Shown here piece by piece: positions 3,679-38,098 of a stretch of 40,587 nucleotides of DNA. Where the stretch lies: the IMG/VR virus record IMGVR_UViG_3300045988_159944, one strand, 5' to 3'. The DNA is from a virus. A program made the position numbers and the translations under genes. How positions within the stretch are numbered: position 1 is the first letter of the stretch; the number at the start of each line of letters is the position of its first letter. Under the pieces are notes generated by a model. That model worked only from the letters and a program-made list of their open reading frames with translations, was not told where the DNA came from and did not search any database.

Positions 3679-3690
3679 GAGGAAACCGAA

Positions 3691-4415: not shown

Positions 4416-4425
4416 GGGGACGGGT

Positions 4426-4602
4426 ATGGAGGACAGGATGCTCAGATCCCGTGAGGCCGCGCGGATGATCGGGATCTCGCCTAGGACGTTGGCGAAGTGG
4501 CGTCAGAGGGGCATCGGCCCGCAATGCGTGAGATTGGGATACAACCTCGTGATCTACCGCCTCTCGGACATCGACGCATGGATACGGGAGCATGAGGCAT
4601 AG
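4426..4602 (+). CDS. Excisionase/MerR-type (HTH_17-like) small DNA-binding protein
   Basis: aagggga RBS. Sequence is MLRSREAARMIGISPRTLAKWRQRGIGP..V.LG....YRLSDIDAWI. Confidence 0.75.
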   Translation: MEDRMLRSREAARMIGISPRTLAKWRQRGIGPQCVRLGYNLVIYRLSDIDAWIREHEA

Positions 4603-4679
4603 AAAAGAGCCCACCGTCTCCGGCGGGCCCTGGCATCATCACCAACCAGCCTACACCACCGGAAGCGGGAATCGAACAA

Positions 4680-7139: not shown

Positions 7140-7559
7140 ATGAACGGAGGAAGCATGGCCAAGGACGCATCCTCCCACCGCATGCCGGCCGGACTGATCA
7201 AAAACGGCCGCGGCCAAAGGCTCTGGCACGACATCACCGCGAAATGGGAGCTCACCGAAAGCGAATACCGCACGCTGGAGAACGCCTGCTACACCGCCGA
7301 CCGCATCGGACGCATCCGCAGGGCCCTCGGCGACGAGCTCACCACCGAAGGAAGCCAGGGACAGCTCGTCGTCCACCCGCTCCTGCCCGAACTGCGCCGC
7401 GACGAGACCCATCTGGCCGACCTGCTCAAACGAATCGACATGCCGGAACCCGAGGAACAGTCGGAAGATGCCTCGTCCGACGGCGGCAGGTCCAGCCGGA
7501 TGCGCGCCACCGTCAACAGACGATGGCACGACAGCAAATGGGAGAAAGCCTACGGCTGA
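7140..7559 (+). CDS. Terminase small subunit (P27-family-like)
   Basis: Its position is directly upstream of, and overlapping, the large subunit start. Motifs: G..LW.DI...WEL...E...LE.AC...D....R..L. Alternative start at ATG 7155 after ggagga. Confidence 0.7.
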   Translation: MNGGSMAKDASSHRMPAGLIKNGRGQRLWHDITAKWELTESEYRTLENACYTADRIGRIRRALGDELTTEGSQGQLVVHPLLPELRRDETHLADLLKRIDMPEPEEQSEDASSDGGRSSRMRATVNRRWHDSKWEKAYG

Positions 7560-19400: not shown

Positions 19401-19842
19401 AGGATATCGTCCGAAAGGCGCCACGGGCAACATCCCAACAGGAGCCACCGGCGGCATGTACGACGGCAACCAGTTCCGATACGCCAACGGAGGCATCGCC
19501 TTCAACGGCTACGTCAACCCGACATGGGCCCCCGGCACGGCAACCAGCGACAGCGTCTACCTCGACAACGCGCGCATCGCACGAGGCGAATACGTCCAAA
19601 ACGCGCTCGCCACCAGCTACTATGGCGTGGAATTCATGGATGCGCTGAACCGAAGGACCATACCTCGTGAAGCATTCGCAGCCATGCCGCAGCAACAGAT
19701 CGTCGTGAAAGTCGAAATGCCGAAGAACGTTGGCCAAACGGTCGTGAACATGCCCCAAAGGATCGTCGTGGCCGACCAGCCATCCGTATCCGGCGCCATC
19801 ATCGGCAGTAAGGTACTGACCACATTGAGGGGAGTGAGATGA
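16477..19842 (+). CDS. Tape measure protein
   Basis: 1121 aa with a Gly/Ala-rich helical core. Canonical position. Alternative start at ATG 16486. Confidence 0.95.
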   Translation: MPTMALNENIMIRLSADTSNYSTRMAAASTQAEKLSTALEKPGSKSRIATNLMAGMGLAAIALGVSATKLAADFDQSMSTIQADLQASDGDMQKLRAAAIQAGADTIYNANEAADGIDALGKAGLSTADILSGGLSGALNLAASDGMQVGEAAELMSTTLKQFNLEGADAGKVADALAAGAGKAVGSAHDLGLALNQAGLMANSMGVSMTETVGTLAAFANAGMIGSDAGTSLKTMLQRLSKPTKEAQAQMDELGISAYDASGNFVGLENFAGQLKNSLSGLSQQQRNAALNIIFGSDAVRAANVLYSEGSDGIAGWTKAVSDSGFAADVAAEKNDNLKGDIEQLSGSVETLMINLGEGSQGMLRKLVQGLDTLVDSFSSLPASVQQGTVALTAMLGGAVALHKALGPLEESVGTVGGAIALAVDPIQRARKAAPKLAEGLMQVGSAMGTATTDLATGAVTVGKGATALNGMKMAGSGVIDLLGGPWGITLTAATTVLGAFISEQQKAQERTTQLSTALHDGVSATQYYQKALSDSSGAKITDSQLGRLVTGYDNVWQAVNKVGIKHGTFIKAIQGEKTAVGEVNREIEAYRKRLVDQGNLFTGSEYRVISQSLAELQGQYKASQSASADLAQADKEATQAGLDKTGALLKGADAASQSADSSQDAASADDILAEAFGATKDAVSDTSAALSEVIDAMQTYYGFAIDSSDAQVNLMDKIASANDTIGKSAKTLDLNTEAGRKNQTALNDIAEAALKCAKAQAQNGDSLNDIYPNIDKAHDAFTKLMQSLGKTPEEAEAAAQSYGLTRKAVDDLVSSLQSAPDSKTIEVKVTGDAVAKFEEVKLAAKETPDGKHVTISGDNTDLMKKIAQAANAKIDPKNGTLTLDSNQYMIALAIANGAKIDDKTGYLKGDNSDAMNKFLETQGWKLNDKGFIVNADGSPAMNVLTNLTNYQIADKYFQIHGSYVDASGGTYSGQGYRPKGATGNIPTGATGGMYDGNQFRYANGGIAFNGYVNPTWAPGTATSDSVYLDNARIARGEYVQNALATSYYGVEFMDALNRRTIPREAFAAMPQQQIVVKVEMPKNVGQTVVNMPQRIVVADQPSVSGAIIGSKVLTTLRGVR

Positions 19843-25846: not shown

Positions 25847-26320
25847 ATGGCGGAACACGCCAACAACAACACCAAAGCCAATCTTCCCGGCCTGACCGGC
25901 GAACGCGTCAAGGCCGTCGTGACGATTCTCGTCACGCTCTTCTCGCTGGCGAATGCGGGATTGAGCTTGGCCGGATTCAACCCGTTGCCGTTCACCAACG
26001 AACAGGTGAGCGCGACCCTGTTCGCCGTCATCGGCGTGATCGGCACCGTGTACGGCTGGTGGAAGAACCAGAACATCACTTCGGCTTCCCTCGCGGGTCA
26101 GCAGCTCGTGGACGCCCTCAAGAAGGAGGGTGTCGTGCATGGTGTGTCCGCCGCGAAGAACGCCGCATTGAGCGCCGCAAGCGCGGTGGCCAAGACCGCA
26201 CCGGCAGAGGAAACCGCCGAGGAAACCGCCAAGACTGCTGAATCCGCTGAGGCCGCTACCGAGTCGGCGACCGTCGAAACCACGGCCGAAGCCCAGTTCG
26301 AACCGGGCGGCAACCTCTGA
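25847..26320 (+). CDS. Holin
   Basis: aggagg RBS. Two TM segments plus the WWKNQNIT motif typical of phi-LC3/LL-H-type holins. Directly upstream of the endolysin. Confidence 0.8.
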   Translation: MAEHANNNTKANLPGLTGERVKAVVTILVTLFSLANAGLSLAGFNPLPFTNEQVSATLFAVIGVIGTVYGWWKNQNITSASLAGQQLVDALKKEGVVHGVSAAKNAALSAASAVAKTAPAEETAEETAKTAESAEAATESATVETTAEAQFEPGGNL

Positions 26321-27219
26321 TGACCGGCGCAAGTTTCGCAATATGGCGAGACAGCCCAAACCATTACAGCGGACGGCTTGGGCAGTCCGTCAACCACATC
26401 ACCCTGCACATCATGGTCGGCAGATTGGCCGGCACCGATAGTTGCTTCCAACGTTCCAGCTTCGGCGCCGCAAGCCATTACGGCGTGGGCGGGGACGGCA
26501 CCGTCTACCAGTGGGTGGACGAGTCCAACGGCAGCTGGGCCGACGCCAACTGGCAGTCCGACTGTTCCGGTGTGACCATCGAACACGAGGGCGGCATGAG
26601 TGGTGTGCCCGTCACCGATGCGGAGGTGGAGGCCAGCGCCCAGCTGTGTGCGGACATCGCCAAACGCTACGGCTGGACAAGCCTCAACCATGACGCCAGC
26701 GGCAATCGCACCGGCAACATCGTCCTACACAGGGAAGTGCCCGGCACCGACCATTACGGGTGCCCCGACAGGTGCACGAACGGCCTGCCGGTGGACCGAA
26801 TCATCAATCGAGCGAACGAAATCCTAGGAGGAGACAATATGAATGCGGAAGACGTTTGGGATTTCGACCAGAACGGCGTGAAGATGCGGGACCGTCTGCA
26901 AGGCACCGACGCGGCCGCCAACGAGGCCCGGACCGAACTGTTCCGGCTCTCGCAGTGGGACACGAAGACGCACGCCTCGCCATTGGGCAATCTGGTCGCG
27001 GAGATGCCGATACAGGGCGGAGCCAAATTGGGCGATCGTGTGGCCGGCATCGACTCGAAGACCAGCCAGCTCATCACGCAGGTGAGCGCACTGTCCGAAG
27101 CGGTCAAGGCATTGGCATCCGCACAGGGCGCCGACCCCGAGCAGATCGCGAAGATCGTGGAGACCGCGGTCAAGGACAAGCTCGCCAAATTGAAGATCAC
27201 CGTGACCGACAACGAGTGA
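26320..27219 (+). CDS. Endolysin, N-acetylmuramoyl-L-alanine amidase (Amidase_2/PGRP type) with a C-terminal domain
   Basis: Motifs: ITLHIM.G......F......ASHYGVG.DG.VYQWVDE....WA......VTIEHEG...VLHREV.....CP. Confidence 0.9.
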   Translation: MTGASFAIWRDSPNHYSGRLGQSVNHITLHIMVGRLAGTDSCFQRSSFGAASHYGVGGDGTVYQWVDESNGSWADANWQSDCSGVTIEHEGGMSGVPVTDAEVEASAQLCADIAKRYGWTSLNHDASGNRTGNIVLHREVPGTDHYGCPDRCTNGLPVDRIINRANEILGGDNMNAEDVWDFDQNGVKMRDRLQGTDAAANEARTELFRLSQWDTKTHASPLGNLVAEMPIQGGAKLGDRVAGIDSKTSQLITQVSALSEAVKALASAQGADPEQIAKIVETAVKDKLAKLKITVTDNE

Positions 27220-27564: not shown

Positions 27565-28695
27565 TTATGCGGCGTCAACGGTTCCTTCTGACAACATTTT
27601 GACAACATTCCCGCGAAGCAGCAGAGCGTCCATCGCAGCGCCCACCTCGTCGAGGTCGTCGTCGAAAAGGTCGGCGTAGACGTCCAGGGTCATCGCCGCC
27701 GACGCATGCCCGAGCTGGTTCTGGATCGCCTTGACGTTCGCGCCGGACCTGACCATGAGGCTCGCGGCGGTGTGACGCAGGTCGTGATAGGTCAGGCCGG
27801 CAGGCACGCCGGCACGCCTCTTCGCCCACCAGAACCACTTCGTCCTGTCGTTCGGCTGCGCCGTGCGGACGAGATACCCTCCGTCCGGCGCGGGGAACAG
27901 CGGCTCGCCGCCATCCCTTCCACCGCACTGGTCGCGCAACGGCCCGTCCAGCACGCCCGGGAACACCACCCGTCTCGTCTCGCCGGACTTCGGCAGATCC
28001 ACCACCACGCCGTGCCCCACCGTGGTCGCGCTCCTTCTGACGCTCAGCCGATGCCGGACGAAGTCCACGTCGGCGACGTGCAGCCCGGCCATCTCGCCCC
28101 ATCTCAGCCCGCACAGGCCGAGCACGAGCACCATCGTGCGGCGTTCGCCGGATTCGTCGGCGAGGCGGAACAACTGTTCGACGGTGAGGTACGTGTGGTC
28201 CTTGCGTTTCTTGCGTGGGGTCTCGATCCCGGCGCATGGGTTGGATGCGATGAGACGGTCGGCGCATGCGTCGGCGCAGATGCCCCGCAGTATGCCGAGG
28301 TTGCGCAGCACCACGGTCGCGCTTTTGCCCTGCGCCTGGCCGGTGACCCATTCCTGCACCTCGTTGCGGTGGATCGACGAGAGCCGCCGGACGCCCCATT
28401 TGGGTTCCACGTGCACGCGCCATGCGCGTTCCAGGGATTCCACGTAGCTCGCCTTCGAGGACACGCGTTTCTTCGCGATCCATGCCGGCCATAGGCCGCC
28501 GACCGTGACCCTGCCTGCCTGCGGGTCGATGAAGCCGCCCCGTGCGACCGCCATCGTCACATGCTCCGCGGCCCATTCCTGCGCGTCGCGTTTGCGCAGG
28601 AAGCCTCGCTTGCATGTCTGCGACCCGTCCGGCTTGCGGTAGGTCACCCTCCATCGCCTGCCGGCCTTCAGCATGTACGAATCGATCACCGCCAT
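27565..28695 (-). CDS. int: Tyrosine integrase
   Basis: Motifs: ...LGLCGLRWGE...; HDLRHTAASLMVRSGANVKAIQNQLGHASAAMTLDVYADLF (R..H.R.Y catalytic signature). gaggtgg RBS before ATG 28695; the ORF is open to GTG 28710. Confidence 0.95.
   Translation of the reverse strand: MAVIDSYMLKAGRRWRVTYRKPDGSQTCKRGFLRKRDAQEWAAEHVTMAVARGGFIDPQAGRVTVGGLWPAWIAKKRVSSKASYVESLERAWRVHVEPKWGVRRLSSIHRNEVQEWVTGQAQGKSATVVLRNLGILRGICADACADRLIASNPCAGIETPRKKRKDHTYLTVEQLFRLADESGERRTMVLVLGLCGLRWGEMAGLHVADVDFVRHRLSVRRSATTVGHGVVVDLPKSGETRRVVFPGVLDGPLRDQCGGRDGGEPLFPAPDGGYLVRTAQPNDRTKWFWWAKRRAGVPAGLTYHDLRHTAASLMVRSGANVKAIQNQLGHASAAMTLDVYADLFDDDLDEVGAAMDALLLRGNVVKMLSEGTVDAA
27590..27610 (+). repeat. Second gacaacatttt gacaacatt block (candidate arm-type site, P' arm), inside the integrase 3' coding end
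   Basis: Direct repeat of 27381..27402. It encodes NVVKMLS of the integrase C-terminal tail on the minus strand. Confidence 0.55.
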
Positions 28696-28893
28696 CACGC
28701 ACCACCTCACGGCTCCATGCGACCTCGTGGAGCCTCTTTCAAATGTCCGGAACCGGAAAACGACGTCGGATGACCGGACCGCGCATGCCTCCCATGGTTC
28801 TTTCGCCCGGCGGTGAAGTGCAGCATGATGCGCATGCGCTTATGACTGACATTGATTAACATTACTGACATTACCGGCAACTCGCCAAAAACG

Positions 28894-29759: not shown

Positions 29760-30287
29760 GTGGACGATGAGCATGGAAACGAAAGCCCTGGCCAAGGGAA
29801 TACGCAGGGGAGCGTCCCTCGTAATGGCGCCGAATCCGACGATGGAATTCAACCGCATCAAAAAGAGGATAGCAAGAACGGACGTGGAAACGTCGTCGGC
29901 CAGGCTGATCGCAGTATCGATGGGAGAAGCGACCCGCAGGACAATGGCGGACAACCGACGATACTAGGATCGCTCTGGGCCGGCGCGACCCCGTCTCCGG
30001 AGGACATGGCCGGTTTCAAAGCCGTCGACCCGACGTTCCCCGAACGCATCATGCGCATGTCCGAAGAGACCGTGCACGCTAAGAACAAGGCGATGCTACG
30101 CTCATCGACACTCGAATCATGGGCGGTTCTCATCACGTCCGCCAGCATGTCCGCATTGCCTTGGGTCATCTGCTTCATAGGCGTCATCAACAAGAACAAC
30201 GCGGCGGCCGTCATAGGCGGCATCGCTGGCCTTATCGGAGCAGGATCAAGCCTGATACAGGCGATCCGCAATAGGAAAGACGACTAA
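29760..30287 (+). CDS. DUF2335-like membrane protein, paralog 2
   Basis: Same GTG start and VDDEH N-terminus as paralog 1. Then GATPSPEDMAGFKAVDPTFPERIMRMSEE, followed by two TM segments. Confidence 0.65.
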   Translation: MDDEHGNESPGQGNTQGSVPRNGAESDDGIQPHQKEDSKNGRGNVVGQADRSIDGRSDPQDNGGQPTILGSLWAGATPSPEDMAGFKAVDPTFPERIMRMSEETVHAKNKAMLRSSTLESWAVLITSASMSALPWVICFIGVINKNNAAAVIGGIAGLIGAGSSLIQAIRNRKDD

Positions 30288-30298
30288 ACGACATCAAA

Positions 30299-30329
30299 CC
30301 CCGGCGCCCACAATATGTGGGTGCCGGGG
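30299..30329 (+). terminator. Strong hairpin terminator after paralog 2
   Basis: ccccggcgcccaca / tgtgggtgccgggg, a 14-bp stem with one G-T pair, followed by a T-rich tract. Confidence 0.7.
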
Positions 30330-30331
30330 CC

Positions 30332-30440
30332 TTGAATTTATTCGGTTTTCCTGATGACTACCGAAATCACCGGAATGTGTCAGGATTATCCAGATTGTGA
30401 AGAAACGTTGACGACGCTACCGACGCATCGGTAGATTGAA
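30332..30440 (+). repeat. About 109-bp intergenic repeat, copy B (plus promoter P3)
   Basis: See copy A at 29635..29742. Confidence 0.85.
30408..30437 (+). promoter_or_regulatory. Promoter P3: TTGACG-N18-TAGATT
   Basis: Identical to P2 through the -10. The downstream leader differs. Confidence 0.55.
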
Positions 30441-30462
30441 AACTAAAACAGGGAGGCGCGCG

Positions 30463-30993
30463 ATGAAGTCCATGACATATGGCGAGGCAAGACAGATTGC
30501 GCGCGATCTCGCAAGGGACACATTGGAGAACTACTGGCCGTCCGGTTCCTATCCGGTGGATCCAGTGGCAATCGCGCGGCGTGCCGGCATAGAGGTGTAC
30601 AGCTCACAACTCGGGACGGATACATGGGGGATGCTTGTCGGCGGCGACAACAACGTCACCATGTACCTCGACAAGGACCAGCCGCTAAACAGAATGCGTT
30701 TCAGCGCCGCGCATGAGCTCGGCCATTACATGACGCACACCACGTCTGACGAGCGGCTTTCAGATTATGTCAAGGCAATACCCGTCGGTAAAGGATACAC
30801 GGACAAACGCAGTGATGCCGGACGTGGCAATCTCTTCGAAGTGATCGCCAACGAATTCGCCGGCGCGCTTCTCATGCCGGAACCCGAACTGCGAAGAATG
30901 ACGAAGGCCGGAGACAGCAACATATCCATAGCAAAGGCATTTCATGTATCCGTGGACGCTGTAGCGTATAGACGAAAGATTCTTGCGCTGTGA
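30463..30993 (+). CDS. ImmA/IrrE-family (COG2856) zinc metallopeptidase
   Basis: gggagg RBS. Motifs: RFSAAHELGHY (HExxH); EFAGALLMP; the typical C-terminal ...IA..F.VS..A...R. Confidence 0.85.
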   Translation: MKSMTYGEARQIARDLARDTLENYWPSGSYPVDPVAIARRAGIEVYSSQLGTDTWGMLVGGDNNVTMYLDKDQPLNRMRFSAAHELGHYMTHTTSDERLSDYVKAIPVGKGYTDKRSDAGRGNLFEVIANEFAGALLMPEPELRRMTKAGDSNISIAKAFHVSVDAVAYRRKILAL

Positions 30994-31406
30994 CGGAGGA
31001 AGAGGACTATTTCGGATGGACTGAAGCGTCGGATGCCGACGATATCCCGTCCATGGAAGACGATTTTGCGCAGCCATCTGATCTGCCTCCGAAGGACGAC
31101 GATTCACAGATCGAGAAATTGCCGGATGATCTAGGGCTGGAATCTTCTTCTCAGCCCGAATCTAAAGACATGAATATGAACATGCTGCTCAAAGCCGCTG
31201 GCTGGCATCCATTCCTCCATCTATTCGTCAGAATCTCGAACATGCTATACGGAAATTATCCGGAATGGCAACGCCCCAACGTCCTCGCGGCAAGACACAG
31301 ACGCATGTTCTGGTACTCATGGGTAAGCGACCAGATAGTCCAATGGCTATGTGTATTGGGAGTCCTGGCGTTCATCAGCGCCACCGCGTATAAGGCGCTC
31401 ACATAA
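30990..31406 (+). CDS. Hypothetical protein with an acidic N-terminus and a C-terminal TM segment
   Basis: GTGA-coupled to the ImmA stop. WLCVLGVLAFISATAY is hydrophobic. Confidence 0.45.
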   Translation: MTEEEDYFGWTEASDADDIPSMEDDFAQPSDLPPKDDDSQIEKLPDDLGLESSSQPESKDMNMNMLLKAAGWHPFLHLFVRISNMLYGNYPEWQRPNVLAARHRRMFWYSWVSDQIVQWLCVLGVLAFISATAYKALT

Positions 31407-31481
31407 TCAGACTTCGGCGCTCGCGGTATGCGGGCGGCCGGGGGTCGGCTATATCTATTGGGTGATGAGAACGCTGTGATA

Positions 31482-32318
31482 TCAGGCCTTTGGGAGCATT
31501 AGCGAGAGTTCGAGCTTCTTGGGTCCCTGTGAGATGAATGCGATGCAACAGGATGGGGATATTCCCAGCCGCGTCTTGTATTTTTCGTATTGGGTCGCGG
31601 TTATGTATCCGATTTCAATGCCGTCCAGCGAAGCCCAGTATGTGGGGCTCCCTTTGTATTTGCCTTTTGGGATCTCGCCTTTTTCCAATGTGACCCATAC
31701 GAATGTGTCGACGCCGTATATTCCGAGCTTGTCCTGATGGAGTTCCTCTCCCAGAACTGAGACCTGATGCTCCGCGTCCAGACAGACATAGCCGGTGGGA
31801 CAGTCGTTCGCAGCGGACGGCGTTGTAGGGGAGCAGTGCAGGATGATTTCGTAACCTCCGCCATTCTTGTGATACACCGCGGCATCGCATGTCGGATATC
31901 TGAGGTTCCTTTCCATCAGTTTCATCCAAGGCTGCCATAGGCGGGTTTCCTCTTTTGCGATGTAGCCAACGAGGATGCCATTGATGGACACCGAAACCGC
32001 ATTCCTGTCGTACTGGTTATTCGGCTCCCTTAATATCGCTGCGGTGAGCATAAGCGTGTTATCCCATTCTCCCATCGGAGAGATTTCGCGTTCATGCCCG
32101 CTGATGGCATTTCTGATTGATGACTGACGGTAACGCTCTCCGACGATTGAGGTTCTTCCAACGGGTGGCATGCGCACGGGCGTTAGACCATCGGCGTTGA
32201 TGTCATCGATTGTTTCCGCGTCGTCATCGACTTGGGTTGAGGGAGCGTCCGCCTTCTCGACTACCGTGATGCAGACATAGGCAATCAACACTCCCAGTAT
32301 GATGATGATTATAAACAT
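31482..32318 (-). CDS. Membrane-anchored protein with tandem HIRAN-like domains
   Basis: N-terminal TM segment MFIIIIILGVLIAYVCITVV. Motif IVGERYRQ...AILREPNNQYDRNAVSVSINGILVGYIAKEE is HIRAN-like. A second, weaker copy follows (VSVLGEELH...WVTLEKGE...WASLDGIEIGYITATQ). Confidence 0.7.
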   Translation of the reverse strand: MFIIIIILGVLIAYVCITVVEKADAPSTQVDDDAETIDDINADGLTPVRMPPVGRTSIVGERYRQSSIRNAISGHEREISPMGEWDNTLMLTAAILREPNNQYDRNAVSVSINGILVGYIAKEETRLWQPWMKLMERNLRYPTCDAAVYHKNGGGYEIILHCSPTTPSAANDCPTGYVCLDAEHQVSVLGEELHQDKLGIYGVDTFVWVTLEKGEIPKGKYKGSPTYWASLDGIEIGYITATQYEKYKTRLGISPSCCIAFISQGPKKLELSLMLPKA

Positions 32319-32393
32319 ATGTCGTGCTCTTCTCTTTCAGGCATATGAAATACCTCGCAATCTTGTCGCGGGGACTTTTCCGTAACGGCGTCG

Positions 32394-32606
32394 TCACGCG
32401 GTGTGGCTGGTCTCGTCGGATTTGGTTTTGACGGAATCGTGATTTTCGACTCCAGTATCCGCATTATGCGTGTGGTCGATGGCGGCGAGGATCCCAGATT
32501 CTTTGATGCCGTCCTTGACGGCCCATTTGATGACGAAATACTCGATCATACATGCGAAAACCGCCACGACGAGTATGAACAAGAAACTTTCTCCGGAGTC
32601 GAACAT
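32394..32606 (-). CDS. Small single-TM protein (70 aa)
   Basis: gggaga RBS. FLFILVVAVFACMIEYFVI is hydrophobic. It lies 44 bp downstream of the ImmA-like gene. Confidence 0.55.
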   Translation of the reverse strand: MFDSGESFLFILVVAVFACMIEYFVIKWAVKDGIKESGILAAIDHTHNADTGVENHDSVKTKSDETSHTA

Positions 32607-32650
32607 AACCTTTTTCTCCCTTCAAAAACGGTCAGACAATAGTCTACGCT

Positions 32651-33088
32651 TCACTGCACACACACGCCGGAATCGTGGAGCAGCTGCCGATAGTCCGTCA
32701 ACACTTGGATCGTGACATCCAATTCGACGGCCATCATCCACATATTGCCTTCATACACCTGCTCCGCCATGCCGTAATCCACCGGGCTGATCAACACCGA
32801 CGCGGTCTCCCTGCGACACCGGAGCTCACATTTGGCGCCGTACGAGGCGCCGCATCCGGGATCGTGATGCCAGGCGTGGATGAGCTCATGGCACAGGGTG
32901 CAGTAGTGTTGGCGTTGGTTGAGCCAGTCGGCCAGCAGGATGAGTTTGTGATGGTCGTCGTACAAGCCGCATATGTCGCGTGGAAGGTCACGCGACATGA
33001 CTGACAGGCCCATGTATTCCGCGTTCCGGCGAAGCTCCGCGATGGTCTTGTTATCCACATTCCTCTCCTCTGAAAAGCACTCTTTCAC
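32651..33088 (-). CDS. ImmA/IrrE-like (COG2856) metallopeptidase, second copy
   Basis: Motif LCHELIHAWHHD (HExxH). Preceded by ...GLYDDHHKLILL.. as in family members. The start is uncertain (GTG 33088, GTG 33058 after gaggagagg, or ATG 33013). Confidence 0.7.
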   Translation of the reverse strand: MKECFSEERNVDNKTIAELRRNAEYMGLSVMSRDLPRDICGLYDDHHKLILLADWLNQRQHYCTLCHELIHAWHHDPGCGASYGAKCELRCRRETASVLISPVDYGMAEQVYEGNMWMMAVELDVTIQVLTDYRQLLHDSGVCVQ

Positions 33089-33198
33089 TGTTTGTCAAGT
33101 TCTGCTTGACAGTTGGAGTGTCGTATGTGATGCTTGAATCAGCTCATCTGCCAAGTTGTAGAAGGAGTTTCCTGGGTCGCTGCGGCGGCCCTTGCTTT

Positions 33199-33732
33199 TT
33201 ATTGGATTGCATCACCTGCTGATGAGGCATTTTCATATTGTCGAATCAGCTTGTTGTAACTGTGCTCGCGGTCGACGTAATAAGCGGTTACAAGAAGGCA
33301 ATACTTCTTGTCCTTATGTGGTTCCAGTACGACAAGGTACTTTTCTGGAACGATAAGAATGTGAACTCTGTTTCGGTGTCCCTTCCTGTACCACCAAGCA
33401 AGTGGTCTCTCGCATACTGAGTATGAGCATTGCGGGCAATTGTCGTAGTGTTCGATTGTCTGTCGTGGGTACCTGATGCGTTCGCATCTGCGAAGGTCGA
33501 CGTCACGTTTTCCTGTGACTTTGTCGTCCACGCTTGTGATATGGAAAAATCCAGCCCATTTTCCATCGCTTTCCTCGAGCTGACGTCGTACGTTTACCCT
33601 CAGTCCATTGAATTCAGGATGGGAATCGATGAAATCGGATTTGAAAACTGAGTAGATGCGATCCTCATACAGGGGGAAATCCTCGAAGGGGGACTTCGGC
33701 ATTAGCTCTGGTGTCCAATGAGGTGAAATCAT
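33199..33732 (-). CDS. Uncharacterised Cys-rich protein, translationally coupled partner of the DUF3800-like gene
   Basis: ATGA overlap with the upstream stop. Contains a CPQCSYSVC cluster. No family recognised by eye. Confidence 0.65.
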   Translation of the reverse strand: MISPHWTPELMPKSPFEDFPLYEDRIYSVFKSDFIDSHPEFNGLRVNVRRQLEESDGKWAGFFHITSVDDKVTGKRDVDLRRCERIRYPRQTIEHYDNCPQCSYSVCERPLAWWYRKGHRNRVHILIVPEKYLVVLEPHKDKKYCLLVTAYYVDREHSYNKLIRQYENASSAGDAIQ

Positions 33733-34433
33733 GAGCGTTTCCCCTCCCAGACGAAGATGTTGAGCTTGCGCGTACCCAGGGTCGTTGACTGGGTGAGCCG
33801 GAGCCTTGATCTCATGCGTATGTAGTCGATGATTTCAGCTTTCGCGCCTGATGGTTGGGGAATGGTCGTCCGGTTCGCCCTGCAGACGGCTCCGTTGATT
33901 ACATCGGTGATCTGCATCATCTGCACTTCGTCCGAACGGATTGGCTGCACCTTCTTGATGCACTCGTGGTTGAAGTCACGATGGCTGTTCGCAAGCACTT
34001 CCTCTAGTTTTTCGGTACGTTGCGCAGAGTGTGTGTCCTTGATGTCCACGTACACGTTGTAGGTGTTTGCGGAATCGAACAGCCTGTCCAACATGGTGAA
34101 ATACATCTTGTAGTACCAATCGTTGTGCGACTGGGACCATGCTTCATGATTCAGACGCGTCTTCTTGGCCACAAGAACACGGAACCTCATGTCGTCATCC
34201 AGGAAGAAGCAGTTCAGCAGATCCTTGTACAGGTCGATTTTTGGCATGCTGGCCTTCGTCCACTTCACTTCCGTACGTGCCTTGACGCCATAACGTGCCT
34301 TGATCTGGAGGATATTCTCCGTGATCTCCTGCCTTTTATCCTTGGGGATGATGAGGGCTCCAAGGACCATCACGTCGCTGTCATCGTGTTCCAGATGACA
34401 GCTCTCATCGCAATACAGGTTGTATTCAGTCAT
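33729..34433 (-). CDS. DUF3800-like protein
   Basis: Internal ATG 34433 after aaagga. The N-terminus MTEYNLYCDESCH matches the i.iDESG start typical of DUF3800. A second acidic/His region follows (YVDIKDTHS; SDEVQMMQITDVI). Confidence 0.7.
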   Translation of the reverse strand: MTEYNLYCDESCHLEHDDSDVMVLGALIIPKDKRQEITENILQIKARYGVKARTEVKWTKASMPKIDLYKDLLNCFFLDDDMRFRVLVAKKTRLNHEAWSQSHNDWYYKMYFTMLDRLFDSANTYNVYVDIKDTHSAQRTEKLEEVLANSHRDFNHECIKKVQPIRSDEVQMMQITDVINGAVCRANRTTIPQPSGAKAEIIDYIRMRSRLRLTQSTTLGTRKLNIFVWEGKRS

Positions 34434-34452
34434 TCGCGTTCCTTTCGATTTG

Positions 34453-34626
34453 TCATTCGTCTGGCGTCTCTGCCTCGAGCCGCGCGTTCGGATCTCTGTT
34501 CGCGGCCACGTCGTAGTCCTCCGGGTGCGCGGCGATACGGTCCACCAGATCATCCGTGATCCGGGACTCGCGCTCGCGGGCTTCGTAGGCGCGGGCGGCC
34601 TCTATAAGCAGAGTCCCGACATTCAT
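34453..34626 (-). CDS. Possible small acidic protein (57 aa)
   Basis: ATG 34626 to a stop 20 nt before the DUF3800-like start. The block is GC-rich, unlike its neighbours. The ATG lies in the loop of the 34611..34645 hairpin, and no RBS is seen. Confidence 0.3.
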   Translation of the reverse strand: MNVGTLLIEAARAYEARERESRITDDLVDRIAAHPEDYDVAANRDPNARLEAETPDE

Positions 34627-34666
34627 TAAACGGACATCGGGACTCGAACTATTTTCAAATGGTCTG

Positions 34667-35758
34667 TTAGAGAAGGCGGCGTACCTCTTCACGAATTTGT
34701 TCAGAGTATGCATAGATACCATTGAGCGTATCAATGGGCATGCGCTCGCAGTTCTTATTCTCGTCGAAGATTCCAAGATATTTTTGTTTGGTATTGAAAT
34801 AAAGGCGAACGATCGGTTTGCGGTTGTTGTCATCAAGGAATATTGCGCAGTATTTCTTCGCGTCCCTCATGGTTACTCGTTCTGGATCAACATCGCTGCA
34901 GGCAATGGCTTTGACAATGCGGTATCCAGCGATTTCCTCTTCAGTGGTGATGATTCCATCATCTTCCTTGCTTTCGGATTCATCCTCGGCGATTTCATTC
35001 TCGCCGGATTCGTCAGCCTCCATCACTCCAACCTTAATGTCATCGGCGCCTAGGGCGGTCTTGAGCCGGTCATTAACCTGGTCAGAGAGGAATTGTTTAA
35101 GAGCCTTACCGACCAGCGGTCTGAATTTATCCATGATGGAAGCGTAGAAGGAGCCATCGTACACATGGCTAGCGAGCAGTTTTACAAACTCGTCGGAGGG
35201 GCTCTTGAATTCCTCTCCAATGGCCCTTTTGAGTGCTCCGACGTATTTGAGTTCTTCCGCGCTGCTGGCGATTGAATCGAGATCAAATGCTGGCTTTGTC
35301 AGCTTTTGCAATGCCGGCAGTACTGTCGGATCGATATCGAGGAGATCTAGAACGAGGAACGGCTTGGAATCCATGCGGTTCGGCTCGTCGATGTCCATGT
35401 AGAAATTCCAGACTTGTCCGTTGGTCAGAACACCGATACGTGCGTTCGTGACAGCGAAGTAACGGTACAGTTGGCTTGCGTTCTCTAGGCTTAGCTGTGC
35501 CTCGATCTTCTTGCATTCGATAAGAATCTGAACTTGATCGTCATGCACGAGCGCGTAATCAACCTTCTCGCCTTTTTTCACTCCAACATCAGCGGTGAAT
35601 TCTGGTACAACCTCGGTTGGATTGAATACATCATAGCCGAGCACTTGGCCGATGAACGGCATAATAAACGCGTTCTTCGTAGCCTCTTCAGTCTCGATTC
35701 CGTCCTTCAGATCGCGTACCTTTGCGGCAACCTGATTAAGGCTCTCTTCAAATTCCAT
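34667..35758 (-). CDS. HsdR_N-type (type I restriction R-subunit N-terminal-like) PD-(D/E)xK nuclease-domain protein, stand-alone
   Basis: gggagag RBS. Motifs: EEATKNAFIMPFI..LGYDVF....V.PEF........KVDYAL......ILIECKK (D...E.K). A C-terminal domain follows after an acidic linker. No helicase or methylase is nearby. Confidence 0.75.
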   Translation of the reverse strand: MEFEESLNQVAAKVRDLKDGIETEEATKNAFIMPFIGQVLGYDVFNPTEVVPEFTADVGVKKGEKVDYALVHDDQVQILIECKKIEAQLSLENASQLYRYFAVTNARIGVLTNGQVWNFYMDIDEPNRMDSKPFLVLDLLDIDPTVLPALQKLTKPAFDLDSIASSAEELKYVGALKRAIGEEFKSPSDEFVKLLASHVYDGSFYASIMDKFRPLVGKALKQFLSDQVNDRLKTALGADDIKVGVMEADESGENEIAEDESESKEDDGIITTEEEIAGYRIVKAIACSDVDPERVTMRDAKKYCAIFLDDNNRKPIVRLYFNTKQKYLGIFDENKNCERMPIDTLNGIYAYSEQIREEVRRLL

Positions 35759-35773
35759 TGCTGCTCTCCCTTC

Positions 35774-36121
35774 TTATTTGGTTTTAATTGAATCTTCGGT
35801 TTTGATACGGTCAGCCCACTTATCGATGTCAATATCTTCGTGGGATGTCTCAAAATCACTTATAACATCTGGGTCTTTGCTGAGTGCATCAGCGTCGGCG
35901 ATGATTTGTGCCAAGGGTGTTCGTAGCGCTGTTGCGATGCGTTGCAATTGTTCGTAATCGGCAACAGTGTTTAATTCAAGAATTTTGCGCAAAGTACCAT
36001 AAGGTACGCCTGAGGCGTCAGCCAAGGCTGGACCACGCATATCTCTTGTTGTCATTGCGCGCTTAATCGCTATCGAAAGAGCCTTCGACTCGATAGTCGG
36101 AATCTTTGTTCCACGTGCCAT
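35774..36121 (-). CDS. XRE-family HTH repressor (CI-like)
   Basis: Motif ...MRGPALADASGVPYGTLRKILE... (HTH). Divergent from the Cro-like gene across an operator-rich 83-bp spacer. Confidence 0.8.
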   Translation of the reverse strand: MARGTKIPTIESKALSIAIKRAMTTRDMRGPALADASGVPYGTLRKILELNTVADYEQLQRIATALRTPLAQIIADADALSKDPDVISDFETSHEDIDIDKWADRIKTEDSIKTK

Positions 36122-36134
36122 ACAAGGGATTTTA

Positions 36135-36220
36135 GTTCCAACTGGAACATGAAAGTTCCATATAGGACACGCCGAGTTTTGTAAAGGTTTTTATTGGGCT
36201 TATCATGTTCTGTATGGAAC
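36135..36220. promoter_or_regulatory. Genetic-switch operators: three 14-bp GTTCC-N4-GGAAC-type palindromes
   Basis: GTTCCAACTGGAAC at 36135..36148; GTTCCATATAGGAC at 36155..36168; GTTCTGTATGGAAC at 36207..36220. Confidence 0.6.
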
Positions 36221-36465
36221 ACGAAAAGGTCTTAAAAGAACAAATGACATCCCAACAACTCGGTAAAGCAGTGAAAGCTACTTTCAAAAAAGCTGGCTTG
36301 ACACAAGAGGAAGCTGGCATCAAAACCGGCATTCCACGCAACAGCCTCAACCGCAAGCTCAACGGCGGAACATTCAACTTCGATGAGCTTGTTCGGATCA
36401 GCCAAGTCACTGGTCGCAAGCTCTCCGAAATCATTTCCGACGCTGAAGCGCTCGCTAGCGCTTGA
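36205..36465 (+). CDS. XRE-family HTH protein (Cro-like)
   Basis: Motif LGKAVKATFKKAGLTQEEAGIKTGIPRNSLNRKLNG. Alternative start at ATG 36214. Confidence 0.8.
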   Translation: MFCMEHEKVLKEQMTSQQLGKAVKATFKKAGLTQEEAGIKTGIPRNSLNRKLNGGTFNFDELVRISQVTGRKLSEIISDAEALASA

Positions 36466-36482
36466 ATCGAAAGGGGAATCCG

Positions 36483-36767
36483 ATGGAACTCACTGAAATC
36501 GACATCCGCGAATTGACGGAAGAACAGTTTCACACGCTCTGTGAACTGATCGGGGAGGACTACCAGGAGATGGCACGTCTTGATGAGAACCCCATGAGCG
36601 TGTGGTATTCGCCGGGAAACGATTCCACTGTGGTCAGGTACACGAAGATGCGGAAGCTCGACGGCAATCAGCTCGGCCATATCTTCGGCGTCACGACCGG
36701 TGATACGGAGGGACCGGTTTCATCACGGAGAACCGATGGGACGGATCATCCGGAAGCGTCCAAGTGA
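36483..36767 (+). CDS. Hypothetical early protein
   Basis: aaagggga RBS. The 3' end overlaps the convergent gene 36691..37227 by 77 nt. Confidence 0.45.
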   Translation: MELTEIDIRELTEEQFHTLCELIGEDYQEMARLDENPMSVWYSPGNDSTVVRYTKMRKLDGNQLGHIFGVTTGDTEGPVSSRRTDGTDHPEASK

Positions 36768-37227
36768 TATGCACATCATCGTCAGAACCGGCCCACACTC
36801 CACGTTCGCGGAACACGAAGCTCGCTTCGGAACCACGCGAAATGTCGCCGAGCTCGTACTTCTTGCCATTCGAAAGCTCGACCCTCACGTCCCTGGCATC
36901 GAACGGATTGTTGTTCGCGACGGAATGCTTGAGGTTCTGCACCTGACGGAGTTCCCACTTCGGAACGGACGCCTCATCCTCCTGGATGGCCGCCTGGCGT
37001 TGCAAGGCATCCGCCTGCGATTCGAGGGCATGCACCTGATCACGAAGCGCCGCAACCGCGGCATTCGATGCATCAATCCGCTCCCGCAGGAGTCTGATGT
37101 CTTCCTTGCGTTTCCTGTCCTGTTCTTTTGAGCTTTTGTGCTCGAGGATCCAGCCAATGATCGTCACAACGAGCGTGAAAACGAATGCGGCGAGCTCGAT
37201 GCCGTGCTGCGAAAACCAATCACTCAT
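36691..37227 (-). CDS. Membrane-anchored coiled-coil protein with a C-terminal beta-rich domain
   Basis: Start taken at MSDWF (ATG 37227). TM segment IELAAFVFTLVVTIIGWIL, then a coiled coil (LRERIDASNAAVAALRDQVHALESQADALQRQ). The ORF is open to GTG 37401. No clear RBS. Confidence 0.5.
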   Translation of the reverse strand: MSDWFSQHGIELAAFVFTLVVTIIGWILEHKSSKEQDRKRKEDIRLLRERIDASNAAVAALRDQVHALESQADALQRQAAIQEDEASVPKWELRQVQNLKHSVANNNPFDARDVRVELSNGKKYELGDISRGSEASFVFRERGVWAGSDDDVHITWTLPDDPSHRFSVMKPVPPYHRS

Positions 37228-37413
37228 GAAAACAATTCTAAGGAGAATCCAATGAACGATCTCAACATCGAGATTCCGGACGAGGAATGCGTCAAACTGT
37301 TCCGCTACGAGGATGATGACGGTGTCGCCGCGTATCTTCTGCTGTTTTCGGAACACGACATGCAAGCGGTCAAGCCGCGTATCGACGCGCAGCTTGACCA
37401 CGAGATGGCGATG

Positions 37414-37656
37414 TCAGTGAATGCGTCCGGCTCTTTGCGCAGGGGCGTCGTCGACCGCCCACCACAATGCGTTGGACGGATTGATGTGGATGGTGTCCGA
37501 GCCGGTGCCCTTGACGGAACCGCTGACGGTCACGACCGTACCGTTCTTGGCCGCATCCATGAGGTCTTCCTCAAGGCTTGCGCGGTCCTGCACTTCGGCA
37601 AGAAGCACGTGAACCGGTTCTCCGGTTCCGGTGCCGAGTGTGAGTCTGTCGCTCAT
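37414..37656 (-). CDS. Hypothetical small protein (80 aa)
   Basis: aggaga RBS 6 nt before ATG 37656. The sequence looks globular. It conflicts with the plus-strand ORF that starts at 37252. Confidence 0.5.
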   Translation of the reverse strand: MSDRLTLGTGTGEPVHVLLAEVQDRASLEEDLMDAAKNGTVVTVSGSVKGTGSDTIHINPSNALWWAVDDAPAQRAGRIH

Positions 37657-37775
37657 GATTCTTCTCCTAACTATTTGGCCCGCACGTCGCAAATGCGGGA
37701 TGACACCGATTCCAGGAGAAGGCCGGGCGGTTCTCCTAACGCCGTCCGGCAACACACATGCAAAGGAGGCGCGTG

Positions 37776-37997
37776 ATGGGACTGCCGCAGATGCTGACCA
37801 CCGTCCAGGTGGCACGGCTCTTCGGGGCCGAAACCCCGGAGGAAATCAAGACCCGGCAGGCGTATCTGGCCCAACTCCGCTTCCGTGGACAAGGGCCACG
37901 GTTCGTGAAGCACGGCCGCATGATCCTCTACCCGCAGGACGCGGTCGCCGAATGGCTCGAGGCCGGCGAGACCGACTGCACAAGGAGCATGCGATGA
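37776..37997 (+). CDS. Excisionase-family (HTH_17-like) DNA-binding protein, candidate Xis or early regulator
   Basis: aaaggagg RBS. Motif MLTTVQVARLFG.........R..G.GP.FVK.GR.ILYP.DAV.EWL. Confidence 0.7.
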   Translation: MGLPQMLTTVQVARLFGAETPEEIKTRQAYLAQLRFRGQGPRFVKHGRMILYPQDAVAEWLEAGETDCTRSMR

Positions 37998-38098
37998 GCT
38001 GGATGGATGACGGCGGGTTCGTGATGAACCTCCTGCCGCACAGGAGACACCTCGATGGCGGCGGGATCGTCCGAACAGGTAGGGCGGCATCACGATGA
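37994..38098 (+). CDS. Possible 34-aa protein
   Basis: ATGA coupling at both ends. Confidence 0.35.
   Translation: MSWMDDGGFVMNLLPHRRHLDGGGIVRTGRAASR

What the first reader, a model, noticed from the sequence alone, without database searches (positions are those of the whole stretch)
33199..34626. Translationally coupled DUF3800-like gene plus Cys-rich partner inside the lysogeny operon: candidate uncharacterised two- or three-gene system
Seen in the sequence: a gene whose product starts MTEYNLYCDESCH (a DUF3800-type N-terminus) overlaps by 4 nt (ATGA) a 177-aa gene encoding a protein with a CPQCSYSVC cluster that I cannot assign to any family. A possible 57-aa acidic ORF ends 20 nt upstream. 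All of these are on the repressor strand, in an AT-richer block, between a stand-alone nuclease and an ImmA-like peptidase.

Established knowledge: DUF3800 is a domain of unknown function, and I know of no named defence or TA system defined by this pair.

Inference: the tight coupling and the prophage position, in a block likely expressed during lysogeny, fit an anti-phage, abortive-infection or toxin-antitoxin-like module.
Basis: partly seen in the sequence, partly recalled or inferred. Interest (0 to 1): 0.78.

Follow-up and report, generated by a model that had tools for sequence, protein, structure and literature searches.

The report
Prophage copy of defence candidate PDC-M04
Two overlapping genes in the lysogeny region of a Bifidobacterium phage are a clear copy of PDC-M04, a gene pair already listed as an untested anti-phage defence candidate, made of an RNase H-like nuclease and a partner protein with no recognisable fold.

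Summary
Gene A (33729-34433, minus strand, 234 aa) is a DUF3800 protein with an RNase HII-like predicted fold. Gene B (33199-33732, 177 aa) overlaps it by ATGA.

The pair is not unnamed. Both proteins match the PADLOC models PDC-M04A and PDC-M04B over their full length (E 3e-85 and 2e-76). PDC-M04 is one of 145 untested "phage defence candidates" that Payne et al. 2024 predicted because they lie inside type I restriction, BREX or DISARM operons.

I found the pairing to be obligate. All 156 A-seeded loci with enough sequence carry B directly downstream. There is no conserved third gene. The "57-aa ORF" is a relic of the C-terminal tail of the repressor of related phages. The Cys cluster sits in a variable insert that many B homologues lack.

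Type I restriction genes flank 17 of 62 lineages, always on the same strand. Within one phage lineage, A stays about 96% identical while B has been replaced by a 65%-identical allele.

Most likely this is a prophage-borne two-component defence, with A as nuclease effector and B as variable regulator or sensor. This function is inferred, not shown. It is a new member of a catalogued but uncharacterised kind, of moderate interest.

The parts
33729..34433 (-). Gene A (PDC-M04A): 234-aa DUF3800 protein with an RNase HII-like predicted fold; the putative nuclease effector
   Evidence: PADLOC PDLC04353 E 3.4e-85, residues 1-232. Pfam PF12686 E 3e-15. AF2 model pLDDT 84.8; best PDB match is RNase HII 1eke at E 1.4e-6. 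The start at 34433 is supported by the conserved N-terminus of 30 homologues.
33199..33732 (-). Gene B (PDC-M04B): 177-aa partner protein with no Pfam or NCBIfam family and no structural neighbour in the PDB
   Evidence: PADLOC PDLC04356 E 2.1e-76, residues 3-177. No Pfam or NCBIfam match. AF2 pLDDT 90.3, with no PDB match at E <= 0.001. The family has 1409 representatives at 50% identity, all stand-alone.
33729..33732 (-). ATGA stop/start overlap of A and B (translational coupling)
   Evidence: Read directly from the sequence. Stop/start overlap occurs in 80% of 79 dereplicated lineages, and the 4-nt overlap is the commonest form.
33741..33748 (-). GGGAGGGG Shine-Dalgarno-like sequence for B, inside the 3' end of A
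   Evidence: Sequence.
34440..34446 (-). GAAAGGA Shine-Dalgarno-like sequence for A
   Evidence: Sequence. Conserved in related phages.
34404..34409 (-). Codons for D9-E10 of A, the 'DE' motif of DUF3800 and a candidate metal-binding site
   Evidence: Invariant in 30 homologues. The DE and QxxD motifs are described for DUF3800 in PMC7736814.
33903..33914 (-). Codons for Q174-I-T-D177 of A, the 'QxxD' motif of DUF3800
   Evidence: Q174 and D177 are invariant in 30 homologues.
33412..33438 (-). Codons for C99-PQC-SYSV-C107 of B: a Cys-rich insert that varies across the family
   Evidence: The alignment of 67 family representatives shows the insert is missing in many members. Only H64 and R82 are invariant.
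33174..33191 (.). GC-rich hairpin 8 nt past the stop codon of B; marks the downstream edge of the exchangeable B segment
   Evidence: Terminator scan; the T-run is on the + strand only. The flank 33100-33200 is 90-95% identical to L097 although B itself is 52-72% identical.
34453..34626 (-).
   Evidence: In L097 the same sequence is the last ~48 codons of a 131-aa HTH repressor that directly precedes A. There is no ribosome-binding site before its ATG here. No counterpart exists in non-bifidobacterial loci.
35774..36121 (-). Context: HTH repressor-like gene at the head of the minus-strand (lysogeny) gene row
   Evidence: phrog_4583 transcriptional repressor E 2e-7. A divergent cro-like HTH gene lies at 36205-36465 on the + strand.
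32651..33088 (-). Context: ImmA-like M78 peptidase directly downstream of B
   Evidence: Pfam Peptidase_M78 E 4e-6; phrog_87 metallo-protease E 9e-14. It lies downstream of B in 76 related loci.

Best explanation
The pair is an instance of PADLOC phage-defence candidate PDC-M04, carried as a moron in the lysogeny operon of a temperate Bifidobacterium phage.

In the commonest related phages the order is repressor, A, B, ImmA-like peptidase, integrase. The pair would therefore be transcribed with the repressor in lysogens.

Proposed mechanism (inferred):
- A is a metal-dependent RNase H-like nuclease and acts as the effector.
- B is made in fixed proportion to A through the ATGA coupling. It is the regulatory or sensing subunit that keeps A inactive or directs it until a superinfecting phage is detected.
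- A then cuts nucleic acid, most plausibly RNA-DNA hybrids or replication and transcription intermediates. This blocks the incoming phage or aborts the infection.

What is shown: family identity, obligate pairing, operon position, fold of A, context and allele exchange. What is inferred: the defence function and the roles of A and B.
For: Identity: full-length matches to PDC-M04A and PDC-M04B. PDC-M04 is cassette CAS_00034, 'Assign as candidate PDC-M04', in Payne et al. 2024.

Obligate pair:
- B-seeded genome scan: A lies directly upstream in 72 of 80 loci. Of the other 8, 4 are cut by a contig end and 4 are fragments.
- A-seeded scans: B lies downstream in 79 of 80 viral loci and 77 of 80 metagenome loci. 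The remaining 4 are cut by a contig end. No A-only locus was found.
- Stop/start overlap occurs in 80% of 79 lineages.
- The A and B distance matrices correlate (r = 0.76; Mantel test, 0 of 2000 permutations reach this value).

Nuclease: the AF2 model of A matches only RNase HII, H2 and HIII structures (E 1e-6 to 1e-3). D9, E10, Q174 and D177 are invariant, and D130 and D133 are nearly so.

Defence context:
- Type I R-M subunit genes lie in the flanks of 17 of 62 lineages, and 69 of 69 hits are on the same strand.
- In L026 the order is hsdM-hsdS-A-B-hsdR.
- MADS genes, integrases, recombinases and LexA-like repressors also occur nearby.
- The pair is spread across Actinobacteria, Firmicutes, Fibrobacter, Spirochaetes and environmental metagenomes.

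Lysogeny position.

B as the variable part:
- Mean pairwise identity is 43% for B against 55% for A.
- One A cluster (>= 90% identity) pairs with two B alleles that are 65% identical.
- DNA identity drops exactly over B and recovers after its stop codon.
- Synonymous sites in B are saturated (pS 0.81), against dS 0.37 for A.
- GC3 of this B allele is 0.50, against 0.71 for A and about 0.80 for the phage.

Analogy: DUF3800 is the accessory protein or fused domain of type VII retrons (PMC7736814) and accompanies Cas12a2, Cas12a3 and Cas13 loci.
Against: - No experiment on PDC-M04 exists in the searchable literature. It is one of 145 untested candidates.
- In one study only 3 of 7 tested PDC types protected E. 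coli.
- The similarity of A to RNase H is at fold level only (TM about 0.46). There is no sequence match to any solved structure.
- The fold of B gives no hint of sensing or inhibition.
- A physical A-B complex was not tested.
- PHROGs labels the B family 'replication protein' (phrog_16230).
- Expression in lysogens is inferred from gene order only. The promoter scan was uninformative.
Confidence: 0.6

Rival explanations
1. Toxin-antitoxin or addiction module. One protein is a toxin (A as nuclease, or B as a RelE-like RNase) and the other neutralises it. Its main role would be to stabilise the prophage or other mobile elements rather than to stop phages.
For: - Tight translational coupling and obligate pairing.
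- No A-only loci, whereas rare B-only fragments exist.
- Frequent location on prophages, plasmid-like and integrative elements.
- The top Foldseek hits of B, though weak, are RelE, HigB and PfiT toxins.
Against: - The RelE resemblance is not significant: E 0.17 over about 50 columns, and hhalign probability 0.2%.
- Neither protein has the small DNA-binding antitoxin architecture.
- The pair is embedded on the same strand inside type I R-M operons, which fits defence better.
- B alleles are exchanged against a constant A. That would be risky for a cognate toxin-antitoxin pair.
- The two readings are not mutually exclusive, because many abortive-infection systems are built like toxin-antitoxin pairs.
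Confidence: 0.15
2. A guard of restriction, in the manner of PrrC. The pair would be a back-up that is held silent by a type I restriction enzyme, or by the neighbouring HSDR_N nuclease, and fires when a phage anti-restriction protein disables that enzyme.
For: - In L026 and L032 A-B lies upstream of hsdR in a type I R-M operon. In L026 it sits directly between hsdS and hsdR, the position prrC holds in the E. coli prr locus (established knowledge).
- 27% of lineages have type I R-M genes in the flanks, always on the same strand.
- In this window the upstream gene is a stand-alone HSDR_N nuclease.
Against: - Most lineages (45 of 62), including the 66 commonest related phages, have no R-M gene or HSDR_N nuclease nearby.
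- Payne et al. note that embedded systems usually also work on their own.
- No interaction data exist.
Confidence: 0.1
3. A function for the phage itself: an RNase H-type enzyme with an accessory protein, used in phage DNA replication or recombination, or in the ImmR/ImmA lysis-lysogeny switch.
For: - RNase H-like fold.
- PHROGs calls the B family 'replication protein'.
- The pair lies between the repressor and the ImmA-like peptidase in related phages.
Against: - It is on the repressor/integrase strand, away from the replication genes.
- Its composition looks foreign (GC3 0.50-0.71 against about 0.80).
- Many homologous pairs lie in chromosomal R-M operons with no phage genes nearby.
- Allele replacement occurs within an otherwise conserved backbone.
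- The PHROG label is an unverified annotation.
Confidence: 0.07

Closest known systems
PADLOC phage defence candidate PDC-M04 (Payne et al. 2024, bioRxiv 10.1101/2024.01.29.577857; cassette CAS_00034, FAM_00014>>FAM_00043)
   Same: Both proteins match the A and B models over their full length. The gene order, strand and adjacency are the same. Homologous loci are embedded in type I R-M operons, which is how the candidate was originally found.
   Different: This copy is in a prophage lysogeny operon rather than inside an R-M system. PDC-M04 itself has no demonstrated function, mechanism or structure.
Type VII retrons (RT plus msr/msd RNA plus a DUF3800 protein or domain; PMC7736814)
   Same: A DUF3800 RNase H2-like protein is part of a multi-component defence-type module, paired with a specific partner.
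   Different: There is no reverse transcriptase and no retron RNA here. A matches only the PDC-M04A models, not any retron model, in PADLOC. The partner is a protein (B). The retron DUF3800 proteins lack the Q of QxxD, whereas A keeps it.
DUF3800-I to DUF3800-XI RNA motifs (Weinberg et al. 2017, PMC5737381)
   Same: DUF3800 genes come with a dedicated, rapidly diversifying partner encoded next to them.
   Different: No such RNA was found in the window (E-value threshold) or in 12 homologous loci (gathering threshold). The partner here is a protein.
PrrC anticodon nuclease within the EcoprrI type I R-M locus
   Same: In some homologous loci A-B occupies the prrC position between hsdS and hsdR.
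   Different: There is no ABC ATPase or anticodon-nuclease domain. It is a two-gene unit. Most copies are not embedded, and this one is not.
RNase HII / H2 (for example PDB 1eke)
   Same: The predicted fold is similar, with an N-terminal D-E pair at the end of strand 1 and a C-terminal helix carrying an Asp.
   Different: There is no detectable sequence homology and TM is only about 0.46. The substrate is unknown. Housekeeping RNase HII has no B-like partner.
TPR-DUF3800 proteins of Cas12a2/Cas12a3 loci and Csx32 of Cas13 CASK loci
   Same: DUF3800 acts as an accessory of immune loci.
   Different: The architecture differs (TPR fusion, CRISPR linkage). Their function is also unknown.

Membership tests
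PADLOC PDC-M04 (candidate system) | A protein matching a PDC-M04A model | tested here: met
   PDLC04353 E 3.4e-85, 283 bits, residues 1-232 against model positions 1-229 of 232.
PADLOC PDC-M04 (candidate system) | A protein matching a PDC-M04B model | tested here: met
   PDLC04356 E 2.1e-76, residues 3-177 against model positions 2-176 of 176. Ten further PDC-M04B models also hit.
PADLOC PDC-M04 (candidate system) | The two genes are adjacent, in the order A then B, on one strand | tested here: met
   ATGA overlap at 33729-33732. The cassette order FAM_00014>>FAM_00043 is given in Payne et al., supplement file 8.
PADLOC PDC-M04 (candidate system) | Anti-phage activity | not testable with these tools
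   No paper in the library reports a test of PDC-M04. The source paper calls the 145 PDCs untested.
Pfam DUF3800 (PF12686) | HMM score above the gathering cut-off | tested here: met
   57.6 bits against 21; residues 5-185 cover model positions 1-148 of 149.
Pfam DUF3800 (PF12686) | N-terminal DE motif and C-terminal QxxD motif | tested here: met
   D9-E10 and Q174-I-T-D177 are invariant in 30 homologues. The motifs are as described in PMC7736814.
RNase HII/H2 enzymes | RNase H-like fold | tested here: met
   The 13 PDB hits with E <= 0.001 are all RNase HII or H2, with probability 1.0, but TM is only 0.40-0.46.
RNase HII/H2 enzymes | Sequence-family membership and the DEDD catalytic tetrad in equivalent positions | tested here: inconclusive
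   There is no Pfam RNase_HII hit and no sequence match to any PDB chain. Conserved acidic residues exist (D9, E10, D130/D133, D177), but their structural equivalence could not be checked residue by residue.
Type VII retron | Adjacent reverse transcriptase and msr/msd non-coding RNA | tested here: not met
   None of the proteins scanned across 30.4-36.8 kb has a reverse-transcriptase domain or a retron hit in Pfam or PADLOC. No Rfam match in 30000-38000.
DUF3800-associated RNA motifs (Rfam DUF3800-I to XI) | A structured RNA of one of these families next to the DUF3800 gene | tested here: not met
   No match in the window at E <= 1, and none at gathering score in 12 homologous loci.
RelE/ParE-type type II toxin-antitoxin | Toxin with a RelE/ParE fold | tested here: not met
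   Best Foldseek hit is RelE 4fxh_B at E 0.17 over 52 columns. hhalign of the B profile against E. coli RelE (sequence entered from memory, not retrieved from a database) gives probability 0.2%.
RelE/ParE-type type II toxin-antitoxin | A small antitoxin with a DNA-binding domain encoded next to the toxin | tested here: not met
   The partner is a 234-aa DUF3800 enzyme-like protein. The upstream 57-aa ORF is a repressor-tail relic.
PrrC-like systems embedded in type I R-M | Located inside a type I R-M operon | tested here: not met
   Not met for this window, where only a stand-alone HSDR_N nuclease lies upstream. Met for the homologous locus L026, and L032 has the same layout upstream of hsdR. 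17 of 62 lineages have type I R-M genes in their flanks.

The most novel reading that the evidence does not exclude
B is a protein of a previously unseen fold that acts as the exchangeable specificity or sensor subunit of a DUF3800 nuclease. If so, DUF3800 proteins would be a general class of immune effectors, each held in check by a fast-evolving dedicated partner: B here, RT-msDNA in type VII retrons, and the eleven DUF3800 RNA motifs elsewhere. The natural pair of B alleles on a constant A in these Bifidobacterium phages would then define which phages are excluded. In R-M-embedded copies the pair might additionally guard the restriction enzyme, as PrrC does.
Probability: 0.25. Interest if true: 0.7.

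Novelty: new member of a known kind. Interest (0 to 1): 0.4.

Why it matters
DUF3800 is a widespread domain of unknown function that keeps turning up in immune contexts: type VII retrons, Cas12a2/a3 and Cas13 accessory genes, and eleven orphan RNA motifs. No activity has been assigned to it.

PDC-M04 is a common DUF3800 cassette. It carries the number 679 in the first column of Payne et al.'s cassette table (a column I did not identify), and I found about 1400 B-family representatives at 50% identity.

This prophage copy offers a compact, natural test case. It has two small genes, a clear operon position in lysogens of a human-gut Bifidobacterium, and two natural B alleles on an almost identical A. 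Showing what it does would validate a catalogued candidate. It could also give the first functional handle on DUF3800 and bear on phage-phage exclusion in infant-gut bifidobacteria.

If it shows no phenotype, it is simply one more unvalidated candidate.

Tried and rejected
1. Structured RNA partner. An Rfam scan of 30000-38000 at E <= 1, and of 12 homologous loci at gathering score, found no DUF3800 motif and no retron RNA.
2. Third conserved gene. Clustering four genes on each side of the pair, in the 75 of 91 genome-scan and divergent viral loci where both genes could be called, found none. The small ORF was traced to a repressor tail.
3. B as a RelE/HigB-type toxin. Only weak partial Foldseek hits appeared, and profile comparison was negative.
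4. B or A related by sequence to any solved structure. Nothing was found.
5. B in the library of predicted viral structures. Only a member of its own family matched.
6. Cys cluster as a family-defining zinc site. Rejected, because the insert is missing in many members.
7. HNH, PD-(D/E)xK, GIY-YIG and 2H-phosphoesterase motifs in B. I considered these by eye. They fit neither the predicted secondary structure nor the Foldseek results, so I did not pursue them.
8. Literature. 'PDC-M04' and 'PDCM04' gave no hits. 'RlfA', the label of the A homologue in phage Bbif-1, returned only unrelated papers.
9. Promoter scan. The number of hits was no more than chance.
10. A-B fusions as evidence of interaction. 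None occurred among the best 150 B-family representatives.
Full report
**1. What is there**

The window is a complete or nearly complete temperate Bifidobacterium phage.
- Large terminase at 7244-9364, tape measure at 16477-19842 and endolysin at 26320-27219, all on the + strand.
- Integrase at 27565-28710 on the minus strand.
- Partial DNA similarity to Bifidobacterium phage Bbif-1.
- Dozens of near-identical human-gut viral contigs.

A row of minus-strand genes runs from 36.1 kb down to 31.5 kb:
- an HTH repressor-like gene (35774-36121), facing a divergent cro-like gene at 36205-36465
- a stand-alone HSDR_N nuclease (34667-35758)
- the small ORF (34453-34626)
- gene A (33729-34433)
- gene B (33199-33732)
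- an ImmA-like M78 peptidase (32651-33088)
- a DUF6019 protein
- a HIRAN-domain protein

GC content is 0.46-0.53 here, against 0.60-0.67 in the rest of the phage. The spacer between the small ORF and A is 19 nt.

**2. Identity**

A is a DUF3800 protein (Pfam 57.6 bits, cut-off 21). B has no Pfam or NCBIfam family.

Against PADLOC-DB:
- A matches PDC-M04A at E 3.4e-85.
- B matches PDC-M04B at E 2.1e-76.
- Both matches run end to end.

PDC stands for 'phage defence candidate'. These candidates come from Payne et al. 2024 (bioRxiv 10.1101/2024.01.29.577857). That study collected gene cassettes embedded in BREX, DISARM and type I R-M operons and kept 145 as untested candidates. [quoted passage not shown]

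I found no paper that tests PDC-M04. One study tested seven other PDC types in E. coli, and three of them protected. So the pair has a name, but only as an uncharacterised candidate.

**3. Is it a two- or three-gene unit?**

The pairing is obligate in both directions.
- B-seeded scan of one genome per species: 80 loci from Firmicutes, Coriobacteriia, Fibrobacter, Spirochaetia, Bacteroides and Mollicutes. A lies directly upstream on the same strand in 72. Four of the rest are cut by a contig end. Four are truncated B fragments, for example L010, which lacks the first 17 residues.
- A-seeded scans: B lies downstream in 79 of 80 viral contigs and in 77 of 80 metagenome contigs. All four exceptions are cut by the contig end. 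There is no A-only locus.
- In 79 lineages dereplicated at 80% identity, the stop and start codons overlap in 80%. The 4-nt overlap is the commonest form and no gap exceeds 17 nt. I chose the start codon nearest the stop, which favours short gaps.
- The pairwise identities of A and of B correlate across 39 lineages (r = 0.76; in a Mantel test 0 of 2000 permutations reach this value).

No third gene is conserved. I clustered the four genes on either side in the 75 of 91 genome-scan and divergent viral loci where both genes could be called.

The 57-aa ORF is something else. In the commonest related phage (L097), the same sequence forms the last ~48 codons of a 131-aa HTH repressor that directly precedes A. 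About 165 bp upstream of A are ~90% conserved in four phages, while the sequence further upstream is unrelated in each. Most substitutions fall on third codon positions of that reading frame. In this window, the stretch upstream of the conserved tail holds the 3' end of the nuclease gene instead of the HTH-coding part of that repressor; a different repressor-like gene lies further upstream. That leaves a relic with an ATG but no visible ribosome-binding site. It belongs to the phage backbone, not to the A-B cassette.

**4. The proteins**

A:
- The AlphaFold2 model (30-sequence alignment, pLDDT 84.8, pTM 0.85) matches only RNase HII, H2 and HIII structures in the PDB. The best match is 1eke at E 1.4e-6, TM about 0.46. 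This agrees with earlier modelling of DUF3800 (PMC7736814 and PMC10910872).
- D9, E10, Q174 and D177 (the DE and QxxD motifs) are invariant. D130 and D133 are nearly so.
- No sequence-level link to any solved structure was found.

B:
- It models with high confidence (pLDDT 90.3) as a mixed alpha/beta N-terminal half followed by a four-stranded meander and a long C-terminal helix.
- It has no PDB neighbour at E <= 0.001. The best hits are RelE and HigB toxins at E 0.17-0.6 over about 50 columns.
- In the viral structure library it matches only a member of its own family.
- An exhaustive profile search finds 1409 representatives at 50% identity (828 at E <= 1e-10). Nearly all of the best 150 are stand-alone proteins of about 155-190 aa, apart from some shorter fragments, and none is fused to another domain.
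- In 67 diverse members only H64 and R82 are invariant. P8, Y22, F30, R76, R85, W88, I93, W113 and T149 are at least 90% conserved. The consensus motif RxPDxRRCERIxWxRxxIEN stands out.
- The CPQCSYSVC cluster lies in an insert that many members lack, so it is not the core of the family.

**5. Context**

In related Bifidobacterium phages the order is: cro-like gene (opposite strand), repressor, A, B, M78 peptidase, integrase. This looks like an immR-immA-int type lysogeny operon with A-B inserted between the repressor and the peptidase. That comparison rests on established knowledge of ICEBs1.

Outside phages, A-B often sits in restriction operons.
- 17 of 62 lineages with at least 6 kb of sequence have type I R-M subunit genes within 5-6 kb.
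- All 69 matching segments are on the same strand as A-B.
- In L026 the order is hsdM-hsdS-A-B-hsdR-ygjP.
- Other neighbours include Eco57I/MmeI-type enzymes, MADS genes, M78 and YgjP peptidases, LexA-like repressors, RepA_N, and tyrosine and serine recombinases.

This independently recovers the reason PADLOC lists the pair. No Rfam DUF3800 RNA motif or retron RNA accompanies it.

**6. Allele exchange**

Among 80 related viral loci, one cluster of A (>= 90% identical) is paired with two B alleles. Sixty-six loci carry a B that is 65% identical to the window's B. Three loci carry the window's allele.

Compared with L097, DNA identity behaves as follows:
- 83-98% through the repressor tail and A
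- 52-72% exactly across B (33740-33200)
- 90-95% again immediately after the stop codon of B

Synonymous sites are saturated in B (pS 0.81), whereas A has dS 0.37 and dN 0.02. B was therefore replaced by an old, divergent allele through recombination. It was not altered by recent mutation. GC3 is 0.50 for this B, 0.71 for A and about 0.80 for phage structural genes.

Whole A-B cassettes only 54-56% identical in A also occupy the same slot between the conserved tail and the peptidase (L158-L160). Across all lineages B is more divergent than A (43% against 55% mean pairwise identity).

**7. Explanation**

The best-supported reading is a prophage-borne, two-component anti-phage module. A is the RNase H-like nuclease effector. 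B is the variable regulatory or sensing partner made in step with it.

Shown: family identity, obligate coupling, the fold of A, the operon position, the R-M and mobile-element company, and the exchange of B alleles.

Inferred: that it defends, that A cuts nucleic acid, and that B controls or targets A. This last inference is by analogy with type VII retrons, which also pair a DUF3800 protein with a dedicated partner, and it draws on the greater variability of B.

Rivals:
- a toxin-antitoxin or addiction role, which is compatible with abortive infection
- a PrrC-like guard of restriction
- a replication or lysogeny-switch function for the phage itself

Their evidence is listed separately.

**8. 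Verdict**

It is wrong on novelty of the kind, on the third gene and on the importance of the Cys cluster.

The pair is a new member of a catalogued, untested candidate family. Interest is moderate. Its value lies in being a compact, naturally polymorphic test case for a candidate system and for the function of DUF3800, not in being unknown.

Noticed in passing
window 34453-34626 (-) and about 165 bp upstream of 34433: The '57-aa ORF' is the conserved C-terminal tail of the CI-like repressor of related phages. Unrelated upstream sequences are joined to this same ~165-bp block in each of the four phages compared, so it acts as a recombination junction. It may also be a conserved functional tail, for example a target of the ImmA-like peptidase.
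   Followed up: partly
window 34667-35758 (-): A stand-alone 363-aa protein with an HSDR_N (type I restriction R-subunit N-terminal nuclease) domain; phrog_4225 'endonuclease' at E 7e-124. It is present in only 3 of the related loci, and in L150 it sits on the other side of the repressor tail. This makes it a separate movable moron and possibly another defence gene.
   Followed up: partly
window 30436-30993 (+): A second M78 peptidase in the same phage, matching the PADLOC capP model (the regulatory protease of CBASS-type systems) at E 4e-25. It is flanked on the + strand by a membrane-protein gene (29760-30287) and an ORF with an acidic N-terminal half (30990-31406).
   Followed up: no
window 31482-32318 (-): A 278-aa protein with a hydrophobic N-terminus and a HIRAN domain (Pfam E 3.5e-5, just under the gathering score), at the end of the minus-strand gene row. 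It is 97-99% conserved in the three phages that share the window's B allele.
   Followed up: no
window 33174-33191: A GC-rich hairpin 8 nt after the stop codon of B, with its T-run on the + strand only, so it points against the operon. The surrounding 100 bp are 90-95% conserved even between phages with different B alleles. All 11 terminator-like hits in 31000-36600 are on the + strand, against 5.2 hits expected on both strands together.
   Followed up: no
L161 (Bifidobacterium phage Bbif-1, GQ141189) 3579-4085 (-) and 4082-4786 (-): In the GenBank record the A homologue (54% identical) is annotated 'RlfA phagic protein' (BBP_0971). A B homologue (36% identical) lies in a stretch with no annotated gene.
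   Followed up: yes
window 35774-36121 (-) and 34667-35758 (-): The repressor-like gene and the nuclease have the lowest GC3 in the phage (0.41 and 0.56, against about 0.80). They are absent from most related phages, which suggests a recent replacement of the immunity region.
   Followed up: partly
protein P0058: A 198-aa metagenomic protein on a 1.2-kb contig is 93% identical to A over 56% of A's length and also carries a Peptidase_M78 Pfam hit. It may be a deletion that fuses A to the downstream peptidase and removes B.
   Followed up: no
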